A stretch of DNA of 64,000 nucleotides, taken from Escherichia coli (GTDB lineage: Bacteria > Pseudomonadota > Gammaproteobacteria > Enterobacterales > Enterobacteriaceae). This document shows, one piece after another, positions 42,501 through 48,500 of this stretch. Positions within the stretch are counted from its first letter, which is position 1, and every line of letters starts with the position of its first letter. Location: NCBI RefSeq assembly GCF_022846255.1, contig NZ_AP025682.1, one strand, 5' to 3'. Made by a program: the position numbers.

Positions 42501-45500
42501 TAAGCTCAACCGGGCGTTGTGGGTGATGGCAGAAACGCTGCTGGAGAGCATGCGCTGATGCTGTTTCCCTGAAAGTGCAGCCCTGACTCACGTCTGTACC
42601 AGTCCCCAGGCATTCTTCCATTCATTTACTTTTTATAAGGAATCATCTCATGACAACCTTTTCGCATAGCTCCACCACACCTTCTGTTTCCGTAACTACT
42701 GCATCAGGGAATAACCAGTCTCAACTGGTTGCCACTCCCGTCCCTGATGAACAGCGCATCAGCTTCTGGCCGCAGCACTTTGGCCTCATTCCACAGTGGG
42801 TGACCCTGGAGCCCCGTGTCTTCGGCTGGATGGACCGTCTGTGTGAAGACTACTGCGGGGGTATCTGGAATCTGTACACCCTGAACAACGGTGGCGCATT
42901 TATAGCACCTGAACCGGATGAAGATGATGGAGAAACCTGGATACTGTTCAATGCCATGAACGGTAACCGCGCTGAAATGAGCCCGGAAGCTGCCGGCATT
43001 GCCGCCTGTCTGATGGCGTACAGCCATCATGCCTGTCGTACGGAGTGTTATGCCATGACGGTCCACTATTACCGGCTGCGGGATTACGCCCTGCAACATC
43101 CGGAATGCAGCGCCATTATGCGCATCATTGACTGAAAGGGGCCGGAACAATGCAACAGATTTCCTTTCTGCCCGGAGAAATGACGCCCGGTGAGCGCAGC
43201 CTCATTCAGCGGGCCCTGAAAACCCTGGACCGCCATCTTCATGAACCCGGCGTGGCCTTCACCTCCACGCATGCGGCACGGGAATGGCTGATTCTGAACA
43301 TGGCGGGACTGGAGCGTGAAGAATTCCGGGTGCTGTATCTGAACAACCAGAATCAGCTGATTGCCGGTGAAACCCTCTTCACCGGCACCATCAACCGCAC
43401 GGAAGTCCATCCCCGGGAAGTGATTAAACGCGCCCTGTATCACAATGCCGCTGCCGTGGTGCTGGCACACAATCACCCGTCCGGTGAAGTCACACCCAGT
43501 AAGGCAGACCGGCTTATCACCGAACGTCTGGTACAGGCACTGGCCCTGGTGGATATCCGGGTGCCGGACCATCTGATAGTCGGTGGCAACCAGGTTTTCT
43601 CCTTTGCGGAACACGGTCTGCTTTAACCCGTCACAACTACATCACACTTGTTTTCACTTTTATCTTCTGTCTTCAGAGGTATCCCATCATGAAAATTATC
43701 ACCCGTGGTGAAGCCATGCGTATTCACCAACAGCATCCTGCATCCCGTCTTTTTCCGTTCTGTACCGGTAAGTACCGCTGGCACGGCAGCGCTGAAGCGT
43801 ATACCGGTCGTGAAGTGCAGGATATTCCCGGCGTTCTTGCCGTGTTTGCTGAACGCCGTAAGGACAGTTTTGGCCCGTATGTCCGGCTGATGAGCGTCAC
43901 TCTGAACTGAGTCAGGAAGGGCATTCAGAAGAGCAGAATTATCGCCACCACCGGACCATTCTTAACCAATTTTCTGTGAGGATTTTATTGTGTCAGACAC
44001 ATTCTCCGGGACAACGCATCCCGATGACAATCACGACCGCCCCTGGTGGGGGCTGCCCTGTACCGTGACACCTTGTTTTGGCGCCCGTCTGGTGCAGGAG
44101 GGTAACCGGTTGCATTACCTTGCCGACCGCGCCGATATCAGAGGCCGGTTCAGCGACGCGGATGCGTACCATCTGGACCAGGCCTTTCCGCTGCTGATGA
44201 AACAACTGGAGCTCATGCTCACCAGCGGTGAACTGAATCCCCGCCATCAGCATACCGTCACGCTGTATGCAAAAGGGCTGACCTGCGAAGCCGACACCCT
44301 CGGCAGTTGTGGCTACGTTTATATGGCTGTTTATCCGACGCCCGAAACGAAAAAGTAAACCACCGGAATAATCGTCTGTTCCGGCCTGGTGCTTTCACCA
44401 CGCCACTTTTCCATTTTTCATCTCTGCATATCAGGAAAATCTTCAGTATGAAAACATTACCTGTATTACCCGGGCAGGCGGCCAGTTCACGCCCGTCTCC
44501 GGTTGAAATCTGGCAGACACTGCTCACCCGACTGCTGGACCAGCATTACGGCCTTACGCTGAATGACACACCGTTCGCTGATGAACGTGTGATTGAGCAG
44601 CATATTGAGACAGGCATTTCACTGTGCGATGCGGTGAACTTTCTCGTTGAAAAATACACACTGGTACGTACCGACCAGCCAGGATTCAGCGCCTGTACCC
44701 GTTCTCAGTTAATAAACAGTATTGATATCCTCCGGGCCCGCCGGGCAACCGGCCTGATGGCCCGCGACAATTACAGAACGGTAAATAACATTACCCTGGG
44801 TAAACATCCGGGGGCGAAACAATGAAACTGGCCCTGACGCTGGAAGCCGACAGCATTAACGTGCAGGCACTGAACATGGGGCGCATTGTCGTTGACGTCG
44901 ATGGTGTTACTCTCGCTTAACTGATTAACGTGGTCTGCGATAACGGTTACTCCCTTCGTGTTGTTGATGAATCTGACCGGACATCAGCAGAGCGCACGCC
45001 ACCATCTGCGGCCCTTACCGGCATACGCTGCAGTACCGCGCATATCACGGCAAAGGACAACGCCTGGCTGTACTCGCTGTCACATCAGACGAATGGCACC
45101 GGCGAATCAGAATGGATTCATTTTACAGGTAGCGGATATCTGTTACGTACCGGTGCGTGGTCGTACCCGGTTCTGCGGCTTAAACGCCTGGGGCTGTCCA
45201 GAACGTTCCGCCGTCTGGTTGTCACACTCATCCGGCGTTATGGCGTCAGTCTCATTCATCTGGATGCCAGTGCCGGATGTCTGCCGGGTTTACCCACTTT
45301 CGACTGGTAATCCGGAAATTCACAACATGAAATCATTAACCACGGAAACCGCACTGGATATTCTGATTGCGTGGCTGCAGGACAATATCGACTGCGAATC
45401 GGGAATTATCTTTGACAACGATGAGGATAGAACGGATTCGGCAGCACTGTTGCCCTGTATCGAACAGGCCAGGGAGGATATCCGTATCCTGCGCCAGTTG

Positions 45501-48500
45501 CAGCTTCTGCAACAGAACCGGTGAGTCTTACTCACCAGACTTCATTCCACTGACGCCAGCCTGAACAGGGCTGGCGTTTTCATTTATCTGCAAAAAGGAA
45601 TATCGATTATGTCTGAAATCACAGCCCCCCGTCCGGAAGTGGTCAACGGGCATACGGACGTTATCTGCTCAACCAGTATCCGCCACATTCTGGCTGTACG
45701 AAAGAGTACGCTGCTGCAAATCGACACACTTACCCGGCAACTGGCTGAAATCTCAGCAATGACAGAAAGCATTGGCGGTAAAACCGCACTGGACTGGGCG
45801 ATGAAACAGGATTTTCGCTGCGGCTGCTGGCTCATGGAGAAAACTGAAACGGCAATGAAAGCCATCACCCGAAACCTTGACCGTGAAATCTGGCGTGACC
45901 TGATGCAACGCTCCGGGATGCTGTCATTAATGGATGCGCAGACCCGTGATACATGGTACCGGTCACTGGAGTACAATAATTTTCCGGAAATCAGTGAAGC
46001 GAACATTCTGAGCACATTTGAACAACTGCACCAGAATAAGGATGAGGTGTTTGAGCGAGGGGTGATCAACGTCTTCAGGGGACTGAGCTGGGATTACAAA
46101 ACCAACTCACCCTGTAAATTTGGCAGTAAAATTATCGTCAACAACCTGGTGAGGTGGGACCGGTGGGGGTTTCATCTTATCACCGGGCAACAGACTGACC
46201 GACTCGTCGACCTGGAAAGAATGCTACATCTGTTCAGCGGCAAACCGATCCCCGACAACCGGGAAAACATCACTATTCGTCTGGATGGTCACATCCAGTC
46301 CGTTCAGGGTAAAGAGCGCTATGAAGACGAGATGTTCATCATTAAATACTTTAAGAAGGGATCTGCACACATCACTTTCAAAAGGCTGGAACTGATTGAC
46401 AGAATTAACGATATAATAGCCAGGTACTTTCCTTCTGTGCTCTCAGCCTGATCCCGAGTGTGATTCCCTTTCGATATCAAAAGGGACTGCGGGTATAATT
46501 GAGGGTACATTTTTAATCAAACCAAACAAATTGTATTAATATCAATATGATAAAAGAAATTTTCGATTCCGAGTCCGGCACCAAATTCATATAAACGGAC
46601 CTCCACGGAGGTCCGTTTTTCGTTTCAGGACGCCACGATTTAAGCGTCCTGCCGCCAAATCAATTCTACCGAACTCAACCAGATTCTCCCCACATCACCA
46701 GCAATTTACGGGCATATTCCAATTCGGGAAAATTTGTTTCTGAGCTATAGCGCTGACTGACGTGAAATGTCGTGCGGCCCCGTGATGCTGTTGAACGTCA
46801 AATGACGTCATCAGGAGCGTAACGCACCCATAAAGCACAACATCGGGCAGAACGCCAACTGATGAGATTTTCTGAATAAGAACAAAGAGAAATGTATCAG
46901 TCCGTTTGCTCATGCAAAGACTAACAATCCATTAAAATAGTAAGCGCTCCGGACAATTTTTCATGGATTATTTTCTGAACATTTTTCTTTGGCAAAGATG
47001 ATGAATTTTGATGGTAAGGAAAATTACTTCTGGTTCTCAGTAAAATCCTTTCGTAATACTATGTAATCAAGAAGTTTATGGCGGGTAAAAATAACGTCCT
47101 ACATTCACCAATAATATGTAAATAAACCCATCTATAGATGGAAAAAATAGGTTATGGCAATTATCATTGCATCATTCCCTTTTCGAATGAGTTTCTATTA
47201 TGCAACAACCTGTAGTTCGCGTTGGCGAATGGCTTGTTACTCCGTCCATAAACCAAATTAGCCGCAATGGGCGTCAACTTACCCTTGAGCCGAGATTAAT
47301 CGATCTTCTGGTTTTCTTTGCTCAACACAGTGGCGAAGTACTTAGCAGGGATGAACTTATCGATAATGTCTGGAAGAGAAGTATTGTCACCAATCACGTT
47401 GTGACGCAGAGTATCTCAGAACTACGTAAGTCATTAAAAGATAATGATGAAGATAGTCCTGTCTATATCGCTACTGTACCAAAGCGCGGCTATAAATTAA
47501 TGGTGCCGGTTATCTGGTACAGCGAAGAAGAGGGAGAGGAAATAATGCTATCTTCGCCTCCCCCTATACCAGAGGCGGTTCCTGCCACAGATTCTCCCTC
47601 CCACAGTCTTAACATTCAAAACACCACAACGCCACCTGAACAATCCCCAGTTAAAAGCAAACGATTCACTACCTTTTGGGTATGGTTTTTTTTCCTGTTG
47701 TCGTTAGGTATCTGTGTCGCACTGGTAGCGTTTTCAAGTCTTGAAACACGTCTTCCTATGAGTAAATCGCGCATTTTGCTCAATCCACGCGATATTGACA
47801 TTAATATGGTTAATAAGAGTTGTAACAGCTGGAGTTCTCCGTATCAGCTCTCTTACGCGATAGGCGTGGGTGATTTGGTGGCGACATCACTTAACACCTT
47901 CTCCACCTTTATGGTGCATGACAAAATCAACTACAACATTGATGAACCGAGCAGTTCCGGTAAAACATTATCTATTGCGTTTGTTAATCAGCGCCAATAC
48001 CGTGCTCAACAATGCTTTATGTCGGTAAAATTGGTAGACAATGCAGATGGTTCAACCATGCTGGATAAACGTTATGTCATCACTAACGGTAATCAGCTGG
48101 CGATTCAAAATGATTTGCTCCAGAGTTTATCAAAAGCGTTAAACCAACCGTGGCCACAACGAATGCAGGAGATGCTCCAGCAAATTTTGCCGCATCGTGG
48201 TGCGTTATTAACTAATTTTTATCAGGCACATGATTATTTACTGCATGGTGATGATAAATCATTGGATCGTGCCAGTGAATTATTAGGTGAGATTGTTCAA
48301 TCATCCCCAGAATTTACCTACGCGAGAGCAGAAAAAGCATTAGTTGATATCGTGCGCCATTCTCAACATCCTTTAGACGAAAAACAATTAGCAGCACTGA
48401 ACACAGAAATAGATAACATTGTTACACTACCGGAATTGAACAACTTGTCCATTATATATCAAATAAAAGCGGTCAGTGCCCTGGTAAAAGGTAAAACAGA

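What the first reader, a model, noticed from the sequence alone, without database searches (positions are those of the whole stretch)
45327..46451. Unassigned genes at the island right end (65-aa and 280-aa ORFs)
Downstream of the CbtA-like toxin and YeeW-like remnant, a 65-aa ORF with a terminator and a 280-aa ORF immediately precede the att repeat. I recognise no motifs in the 280-aa protein; the terminal position in CP4-type elements is often variable.
Basis: inference. Interest (0 to 1): 0.35.

Follow-up and report, generated by a model that had tools for sequence, protein, structure and literature searches.

The report
Known-family, function-unknown genes at island end
The two "unassigned" genes are real, conserved members of two already catalogued families of unknown function (DUF957 and DUF4942) that close the "first-to-enter" gene block which E. 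coli genomic islands share with conjugative plasmids, so the finding is ordinary even though nobody knows what the proteins do.

Summary
A 65-aa ORF (45327-45524), a terminator-like hairpin (45552-45578) and a 280-aa ORF (45609-46451) lie 111 nt before the 17-nt tRNA-Phe att repeat (46562-46578).

Both are real genes under purifying selection (dN/dS 0.08-0.24). Neither is new.
- The 65-aa protein is annotated DUF957 (Aec78/L0009).
- The pair's DNA occurs in 4154 of 5426 complete E. coli genomes.

The terminal position is not variable. In 80 Enterobacterales loci DUF4942 is the last module gene, after CbtA in 76. DUF957 is an optional insert (12/80).

DUF4942 homologues sit in 4366 plasmids, 92% of them conjugative. 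A 2024 study lists the family as enriched next to oriT.

The window protein has no methyltransferase domain or motifs. In phages the same module is fused N-terminally to a compact N6-adenine methyltransferase. Its confident model (pLDDT 89) matches no solved fold.

A hairpin with compensatory changes precedes DUF4942 in about 70 of 80 loci.

Best reading: non-catalytic establishment or anti-defence proteins of a leading-region-like module. The mechanism is inferred, not shown.

The parts
44822..45310 (+). DUF5983 (YeeW/Aec77-like) gene, inactivated by one in-frame TAA at 44918-44920. It is the upstream neighbour of the finding.
   Evidence: Pfam DUF5983_N (E 2e-16) on 44822-44917. DUF5983 C-terminal domain (E 3e-21) on 44930-45307, in the same frame. 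Intact 162-aa homologue in L001.
45327..45524 (+). DUF957-family gene (65 aa, pI 4.2; Aec78/L0009). The protein is a small acidic helix-loop-helix.
   Evidence: 98% identical to proteins named DUF957. No hit in Pfam or NCBIfam. dN/dS 0.08-0.24. AF2 model pLDDT 81, helices 6-22 and 38-64, with the conserved acidic loop IIFDNDEDxTDS. Present in only 12 of 80 related loci.
45552..45588 (+). GC-rich hairpin plus T tract (intrinsic-terminator-like), 30 nt upstream of the DUF4942 start codon.
   Evidence: Terminator scan. An equivalent hairpin lies 7-31 nt before DUF4942 in about 70 of 80 loci, whichever gene is upstream. All 8 consensus pairs show compensatory double changes.
45595..45599 (+). Shine-Dalgarno-like AAGGA, 9 nt before the ATG of the DUF4942 gene.
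   Evidence: Read directly from the sequence. A GGA/AAGGA occupies the same position in related loci.
45609..46451 (+). [not shown]
   Evidence: Pfam PF13708, E 3e-66, residues 87-275. 2122 50%-identity clusters. No NPPY/F motif or SAM-binding motif. AF2 pLDDT 88.9 with no PDB fold match. dN/dS 0.11-0.18.
46466..46510 (+). Island-end non-coding segment. It holds an imperfect palindrome TCCCTTTcgatatcaAAAGGGA (46466-46487) and two direct repeats, GGGTATAAT and GGGTACA (46492-46510). These are candidate integrase arm-type sites. A promoter-like TCGATA-17-TATAAT overlaps them and faces outward.
   Evidence: Sequence and promoter scan. Analogous paired direct repeats follow DUF4942 in other loci, and their sequence changes with the integration site. 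Function not tested.
46562..46578 (+). Right att core: a 17-nt direct repeat of the 3' end of tRNA-Phe (3439-3455).
   Evidence: the repeat finder family D19, 100% identity. tRNA-Phe at 3386-3461.

Best explanation
Identity (shown). The two ORFs are functional genes of two catalogued families of unknown function: DUF957 (65 aa) and DUF4942 (280 aa).

Context (shown). They are the distal end of the island's conserved right arm: DUF905, DUF932, ArdB/KlcA antirestriction, RadC, DUF987, CbeA, CbtA, YeeW/DUF5983, DUF957, DUF4942. Several of these families have relatives in the leading (first-transferred) regions of conjugative plasmids: DUF905, the DUF932/DUF945 group, KlcA, DUF5983 and DUF4942 are in the 2024 enrichment table, and a RadC-like JAB gene lies in the pOXA-48 leading region. 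CbtA/CbeA and DUF987 were not checked against plasmids.

DUF4942 (part shown, part inferred). It is the core gene that closes this block next to the att end. It is not a methyltransferase. It is the stand-alone form of a strongly conserved module that, in phages and other mobile elements, sits N-terminal to a compact N6-adenine methyltransferase lacking any target-recognition domain of its own. I infer that DUF4942 is a nucleic-acid- or incoming-DNA-targeting module, and that on its own it acts as an establishment or anti-defence factor when the element enters a new cell.

Expression (inferred). A conserved intrinsic-terminator hairpin directly upstream insulates DUF4942 from the CbeA/CbtA transcript. 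Expression would then come from read-through or from a start within the hairpin region.

DUF957 (inferred). It is an optional, small acidic two-helix accessory protein of the same kind of gene array. Its partner is unknown.
For: Family and prevalence
- Pfam DUF4942 at 223 bits.
- The 65-aa protein is 98% identical to proteins named DUF957.
- The pair's DNA is in 4154 of 5426 complete E. coli genomes, median 2 copies per genome.
- Purifying selection on both genes.

Synteny in 80 Enterobacterales loci
- Within 6 kb upstream: CbtA in 76 loci, RadC in 71, CbeA in 69.
- No homologue of any other module gene lies downstream on the same strand.
- An att or tRNA follows within about 110 nt in many loci.

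Plasmid link
- tblastn finds homologues (32-37% identity, E about 1e-43) in 4366 of 72,556 plasmids; 3997 of these are conjugative.
- In the IncI plasmid pSD107, DUF4942 is the last same-strand gene before the nikA(mobA)/nikB relaxase genes. Only a small opposite-strand ORF lies between, and the gene points towards them. It follows ssb, DUF905, ParB, psiB, psiA and ardA.
- In pOXA-48 it lies in the ssb/antirestriction region.
- Samuel et al. 2024, Supplementary Table 1, lists DUF4942 as leading-region-enriched family 24: FDR p = 0, 2171 members, median ORF position 1 from oriT, T-strand orientation. It also lists family 76, plus DUF905, the DUF945/DUF932 group (family 3), KlcA and DUF5983.

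Fusions
- Proteins of 460-560 aa carry DUF4942 followed by EPSAGxG...NPPF/Y.
- The invariant residues W95, D201, H254 and N267 are kept in fused, plasmid and island forms.

Hairpin
- Present in about 70 of 80 loci; all 8 consensus pairs show compensatory changes.
Against: - No experiment on any family member was found.
- PADLOC has no model for either protein.
- The family keeps invariant polar residues (D201, H254, N267, K164, N166). That pattern fits an enzyme or a fixed ligand site as well as a binding module, and it is unlike the variable recognition domains of methyltransferases.
- No oriT is known in this island. The sequence after DUF4942 is not conserved between loci. "Leading region" is thus an analogy, not a demonstrated property here.
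- How DUF4942 is transcribed past the hairpin is unknown.
Confidence: 0.5

Rival explanations
1. DUF4942 is an enzyme, for example a nuclease, hydrolase or transferase acting on nucleic acid or on a defence-signalling molecule. It would not be a passive binding or targeting module. The conserved D/H/N/K residues would form its active site, and it would act as an anti-defence effector.
For: Invariant or near-invariant polar residues across 97 diverse members: D91, S160, K164, N166, D201, R204, H254, N267. They are retained in the fused and plasmid forms. Conservation is far stronger than in typical methyltransferase recognition domains. The leading-region context favours anti-defence effectors.
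Against: No similarity to any catalytic Pfam family, PDB sequence or PDB fold. The model's coordinates could not be inspected, so I do not know whether the conserved residues cluster in a pocket.
Confidence: 0.2
2. DUF4942 (with or without DUF957) is an extra component or regulator of the CbtA/CbeA type IV toxin-antitoxin module that it follows.
For: CbtA lies upstream in 76 of 80 chromosomal loci and is the nearest upstream homologue in 56.
Against: In the two conjugative plasmids whose loci I inspected, DUF4942 has no CbtA gene within 8-9 kb (IncI pSD107 and IncL pOXA-48-type), and the phage homologues occur as methyltransferase fusions. A conserved terminator hairpin separates it from the TA genes. 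Some islands, such as K-12 CP4-44, keep CbtA/CbeA without DUF4942.
Confidence: 0.1
3. Because it always abuts the att end, DUF4942 is an integration or excision accessory: a directionality factor or an architectural att-binding protein.
For: It is the last gene before att or a tRNA gene at several different integration sites (Phe, Met, Arg, Thr, Ser). Paired direct repeats lie between its stop codon and the att core.
Against: In the IncI and IncL plasmid loci inspected, DUF4942 lies in the oriT-proximal leading region and no integrase is annotated within 8-9 kb. In phages it is fused to methyltransferases. At 280 aa with a new fold, it is unlike known excisionases. The protein is conserved while the repeats change with the site.
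Confidence: 0.08
4. [not shown]
For: Source names. PHROG 6263, "DNA methyltransferase", matches at E 3e-16.
Against: The PHROG match covers only profile positions 77-287 of 548, which is the non-catalytic half. No methyltransferase Pfam domain is detected. No (D/N/S)PP(Y/F) motif or SAM-binding motif is present. In fused homologues the catalytic domain is a separate C-terminal 190 aa that this protein lacks. No partner methyltransferase gene lies in the window, and across the 80 loci (within 8 kb) there are only weak opposite-strand hits in three of them, the best at E 2e-4.
Confidence: 0.03

Closest known systems
[not shown]
   Same: Same Pfam family, aligned over the full length (32-37% identity, E about 1e-43). 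Same invariant residues. Same neighbours: DUF905, the DUF932/DUF945 group, antirestriction, RadC/JAB. The gene is at or near the end of the same-strand array.
   Different: The window copy is chromosomal, in a tRNA-Phe island with an integrase and no relaxase. No oriT has been identified there. It follows a CbtA/CbeA toxin-antitoxin pair, not ardA/psiB/ssb.
[not shown]
   Same: Direct orthologues or paralogues (about 80-96% identity) in the same order at the same island end.
   Different: None of substance. This is a further copy, here in an island inserted at tRNA-Phe beside cadC that also carries an AfaR small-RNA match.
Phage and mobile-element DUF4942-methyltransferase fusions (PHROG 6263; Pseudomonas phage phiPSA1 gp22; Aeromonas phage 4_D05 gp31)
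   Same: The N-terminal 270 aa are homologous, with all invariant residues kept.
   Different: Those proteins carry an extra C-terminal N6-adenine methyltransferase domain (EPSAGxG...NPPF/Y) that the window protein lacks.
ParB-like proteins and ParB-methyltransferase fusions of plasmid leading regions (analogy only)
   Same: Each involves a conserved non-catalytic module that occurs alone, and also fused to an orphan adenine methyltransferase, in early-entry regions. The stand-alone and fused ParB forms are from my own knowledge; the leading-region setting of ParB and orphan methyltransferases is.
   Different: No sequence or fold relationship was detected. The resemblance is one of architecture and context.

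Membership tests
Pfam DUF4942 (PF13708) | Score above the curated gathering threshold over the whole domain model | tested here: met
   223 bits against a cut-off of 25; profile positions 1-189 of 190; residues 87-275.
Pfam DUF4942 (PF13708) | Family-invariant residues present (W95, D201, H254, N267 and the LSWDYKTN motif) | tested here: met
   Alignments A1 (97 sequences), A2 and A4.
Leading-region gene family of conjugative elements (Samuel et al. 2024, families 24 and 76) | Homology to the plasmid family members | tested here: met
   [not shown]
Leading-region gene family of conjugative elements (Samuel et al. 2024, families 24 and 76) | Located next to an oriT, on the strand transcribable from the transferred strand | tested here: inconclusive
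   True for IncI pSD107 and for the published statistics. In the window no oriT is identifiable, and the 110 nt after the gene are not conserved across loci.
N6-adenine DNA methyltransferase (legacy annotation) | SAM-binding motif I and catalytic motif IV, (D/N/S)PP(Y/F/W) | tested here: not met
   Neither motif is present. Both are present in the C-terminal domain of the fused homologues.
N6-adenine DNA methyltransferase (legacy annotation) | Match to a methyltransferase domain model | tested here: not met
   Only DUF4942 is found in Pfam, and nothing in NCBIfam.
DUF957 | Match to the family model | tested here: inconclusive
   No DUF957 model hit in the Pfam or NCBIfam copies searched. Membership rests on 98% identity to proteins that NCBI names DUF957 and on the conserved core LTTExALxILxxWLQDNID...IIFDNDExxTDS.
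Intrinsic (Rho-independent) terminator | GC-rich stem, short loop, 3' T tract on the sense strand | tested here: met
   11-pair stem with 7 G-C pairs, 5-nt loop, T-rich tail. The structure is conserved with compensatory changes.
Intrinsic (Rho-independent) terminator | Actually terminates transcription | not testable with these tools
   Needs Term-seq, northern blots or reporter assays.
Known anti-phage or anti-defence systems (PADLOC) | Match to any model | tested here: not met
   No families matched either protein.

The most novel reading that the evidence does not exclude
DUF4942 has a fold not represented in the PDB. It would be a first-entering establishment or anti-defence factor shared by conjugative plasmids, phages (as the targeting half of orphan adenine methyltransferases) and the CP4-type islands found in about three quarters of E. 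coli genomes. Together with a conserved upstream terminator switch, it would mark these islands as conjugation-mobilised elements whose right arm is a true leading region.
Probability: 0.3. Interest if true: 0.6.

Novelty: already known. Interest (0 to 1): 0.27.

Why it matters

The residual interest lies in the family, not in this locus. DUF4942 is one of the largest uncharacterised families enriched in plasmid leading regions. It is present in most E. coli genomes and has no solved-structure relative. It is also widely mislabelled as a methyltransferase.

Showing what it does would bear on two questions: how plasmids and mobilisable islands establish in new hosts, and whether CP4-type islands travel by conjugation.

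Tried and rejected
Searches that gave nothing
- PADLOC and NCBIfam: no hits for either protein.
- PDB by sequence, using the single proteins and the family profile: only chance-level hits to augmin.
- The search for related loci with the 97-sequence alignment failed for lack of a conserved stretch. It worked with a 21-sequence subset.
- The SGI-4 oriT paper was not held, so the island could not be compared with the published oriT.

Ideas tested and rejected
- An oriT between DUF4942 and att. The downstream sequence is not conserved across loci. It carries paired direct repeats that change with the integration site, which suits integrase arm sites better.
- The TAATGCGCC at the hairpin base, which resembles the MOBQ nick-site consensus I recall. 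The motif is not kept in other hairpin classes, and the geometry differs.
- A separately encoded partner methyltransferase. None was found in the window; in the 80 loci (within 8 kb) only weak opposite-strand hits turned up in three, the best at E 2e-4.
- K-12 YoeF as a DUF4942 remnant. The two are unrelated (E 0.2), and CP4-44 simply lacks both genes.
- A nested promoter (TTCCCA-16-CATAAT) at the hairpin base in the majority class. It was noted but not testable, and it is absent from the window's hairpin class.
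Full report
**Setting.** The window is E. coli chromosome. 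The flank 46600-49000, which includes cadC at 47200-48738, is 100% identical to several E. coli genomes. tRNA-Phe lies at 3386-3461. Its last 17 nt (3439-3455) are repeated at 46562-46578. The repeats delimit an island of about 43 kb, with the integrase gene (3596-4924) at the tRNA end.

**Observation.** The finding's coordinates fit two ORFs exactly: 45327-45524 (65 aa) and 45609-46451 (280 aa).
- Between them is an 11-pair GC-rich hairpin with a T-rich tail at 45552-45578.
- The att repeat starts 111 nt after the second stop codon.
- Upstream are a CbtA toxin gene (Pfam E 7e-58) and a DUF5983/YeeW-like gene broken by one in-frame TAA at 44918-44920.

The description is confirmed.

**Are they genes?** Yes. 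Against other copies, dN/dS is 0.08-0.24 for the 65-aa ORF and 0.11-0.18 for the 280-aa ORF. That is lower than for the neighbouring toxin among close copies, at 0.30-0.56.

**What are they?**
- The 280-aa protein is a full-length member of Pfam DUF4942 (PF13708; E 3e-66; residues 87-275).
- The 65-aa protein has no model hit in Pfam or NCBIfam. It is 98% identical to proteins that NCBI names DUF957.
- The DNA of the pair occurs in 4154 of 5426 complete E. coli genomes, with a median of two copies per genome. It is always annotated DUF5983 | DUF957 | DUF4942.
- E. coli K-12 CP4-44 stops at yeeW and lacks both genes. YoeF is unrelated.

**Conserved, not variable.** A scan of one genome per species returned 80 Enterobacterales loci at 55-88% identity.
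- Within 6 kb upstream, on the same strand, CbtA is present in 76 loci, RadC in 71 and CbeA in 69. The nearest upstream homologue is CbtA in 56 loci.
- DUF957 is present in only 12 loci and DUF5983 in 19. These two are optional inserts between CbtA and DUF4942.
- Downstream, no homologue of the other module genes follows on the same strand. Within about 110-130 nt many loci show paired direct repeats and then a tRNA gene or fragment. The repeats include TTACCTGACCC twice and TGTTGGTAT...TGTTGGTAC; the window has GGGTATAAT/GGGTACA at 46492-46510.
- A complete tRNA gene lies within 400 nt downstream in 13 loci (Met, Arg, Thr, Ser). Other loci have extra cargo ORFs inserted there.
- Because the repeats change with the integration site, I read them as candidate integrase arm sites and not as an oriT.

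**Link to plasmids.**
- tblastn finds DUF4942 homologues (32-37% identity, E about 1e-43) in 4366 of 72,556 plasmids; 3997 of these are typed conjugative.
- In the IncI plasmid pSD107 the order is ssb, DUF905, ParB, psiB, psiA, ardA..., DUF4942, then nikA(mobA)/nikB. DUF4942 is the last same-strand gene before the relaxase genes, with only a small opposite-strand ORF between, and it points towards them.
- In an IncL pOXA-48-type plasmid it lies among a JAB/RadC-like gene, DUF1380, antirestriction and ssb, upstream of mobA/traI.
- An IncP-like contig has korA-incC-korB, then DUF4942, then a C5 methylase. Another context has a Toprim primase and RadC.
- DUF957-like genes (about 56% identity over the core) also occur in about 1400 plasmids, 1293 of them typed conjugative. 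The one locus I inspected is on an IncHI2 plasmid, in a same-strand array of small genes next to DUF3085.

**Not a methyltransferase.** The family is large: 2122 clusters at 50% identity with E at most 1e-3. Most members are stand-alone proteins of 255-295 aa.
- A minority are 460-560 aa. They consist of DUF4942 followed by a compact domain of about 190 aa carrying FPTP...EPSAGxG...NPPF/Y. This is a gamma-like N6-adenine methyltransferase with no recognition domain of its own. Examples are P0303, P0329, P0332, P0370, P0382, phage phiPSA1 gp22 and phage 4_D05 gp31.
- The PHROG "DNA methyltransferase" match covers only the non-catalytic half of that profile.
- The window protein has no such motifs.
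- No partner methyltransferase gene lies in the window. Within 8 kb in the 80 loci there are only weak opposite-strand hits in three, the best at E 2e-4.

**Structure.**
- With a 97-sequence alignment, AlphaFold2 gives a confident model (pLDDT 88.9, pTM 0.80). It has N-terminal helices at 24-159 and an alpha/beta domain at 174-273.
- W95, D201, H254 and N267 are invariant. S160, K164, N166 and R204 are nearly so. These residues are kept in island, plasmid and fused forms.
- DUF957 is predicted as two helices (6-22 and 38-64) joined by the conserved acidic loop IIFDNDEDxTDS. Its pI is 4.2.

**The hairpin.**
- A GC-rich hairpin with a T tract lies 7-31 nt before the DUF4942 start codon in about 70 of 80 loci. 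This holds whether the upstream gene is DUF957, DUF5983, CbtA or CbeA.
- Stem sequences differ between lineages while pairing is kept: CCTGCC/GGCAGG, CCAGCC/GGCTGG, GCCTCTGCC/GGCAGAGGC, CACCCGCC/GGCGGGTG.
- On 31 distinct sequences, all 8 consensus pairs show double compensatory changes.
- The T tract is always on the sense side, and there is no room for a promoter between the hairpin and the ribosome-binding site.
- I read it as a conserved intrinsic terminator that insulates DUF4942 from the toxin-antitoxin transcript. How DUF4942 is then expressed is open: it could be read-through or a start inside the hairpin region.

**Mechanism.**
- Shown: family membership, prevalence, synteny, plasmid homology, absence of a catalytic domain, existence of the fusions, and the conserved hairpin.
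- Inferred: DUF4942 is a targeting or binding module for incoming DNA or a host factor, and alone it serves establishment or anti-defence.
- The strongest rival is that it is an enzyme, given the invariant polar residues.
- Roles as a toxin-antitoxin component, as an excision factor or as a methyltransferase are poorly supported. The evidence for each is in the rivals section.

**Verdict.** The finding is already known as two catalogued DUF families. Any remaining interest lies in the unsolved function of DUF4942.

Noticed in passing
window 5974-6230 (+) and 12410-12532 (-): Rfam matches to the AfaR small RNA (270 bits) and to isrC (135 bits) inside the island. From memory, this suggests an afa-type adhesin pathogenicity island at the tRNA-Phe/cadC site; I did not test that.
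   Followed up: no
window 3455-3594 versus 46577-46716: The direct repeat flanking the island extends about 140 nt beyond the 17-nt tRNA core, at 89% identity and with a 1-nt offset. The island therefore carries its own diverged copy of the sequence downstream of tRNA-Phe.
   Followed up: partly
window 44918-44920: A single in-frame TAA splits the DUF5983/YeeW-like gene into 32-aa and 126-aa pieces. An intact 162-aa version exists in another E. coli genome.
   Followed up: yes
window 46466-46510: The 110 nt between DUF4942 and att hold an imperfect 22-nt palindrome, two GGGTA(T/C)A direct repeats one helical turn apart, and an outward-facing promoter-like site, TCGATA-17-TATAAT. Comparable paired repeats occur at other integration sites. 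They could be integrase arm sites, or a promoter that reads across the joined ends after excision.
   Followed up: partly
window 36871-36963: Three copies of a repeat with 24-nt spacing (reference unit 45 nt, copies overlapping) that share GAAAATACGTGTATA-like cores, in a non-coding stretch of the island (family D2). This could be an iteron-like or regulator-binding array.
   Followed up: no
L055, L064, L070, L081 (about 60-110 nt after DUF4942); L036, L041, L044, L050, L052, L059 and others: In several species extra cargo ORFs sit between DUF4942 and the island end. One recurrent ORF starts MPIPERPKIYHILH. Another starts M(G/R)Q(P/L)AKQTISAQIP. Neither was identified.
   Followed up: no
L044, L046, L054, L058, L062, L086 (downstream of DUF4942): A same-strand integrase homologue follows DUF4942 by 0.3-3 kb in several species. 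This is consistent with tandem islands at one tRNA site.
   Followed up: no
L098 (IncHI2 plasmid pXH992_1) 5974-6781, and L097 3768-4130: A longer (103-aa) DUF957-like gene sits next to a DUF3085 gene on an IncHI2 plasmid. DUF3085 also lies in the pOXA-48 leading region, upstream of DUF4942. The two small families may travel together in plasmid early-gene arrays.
   Followed up: partly
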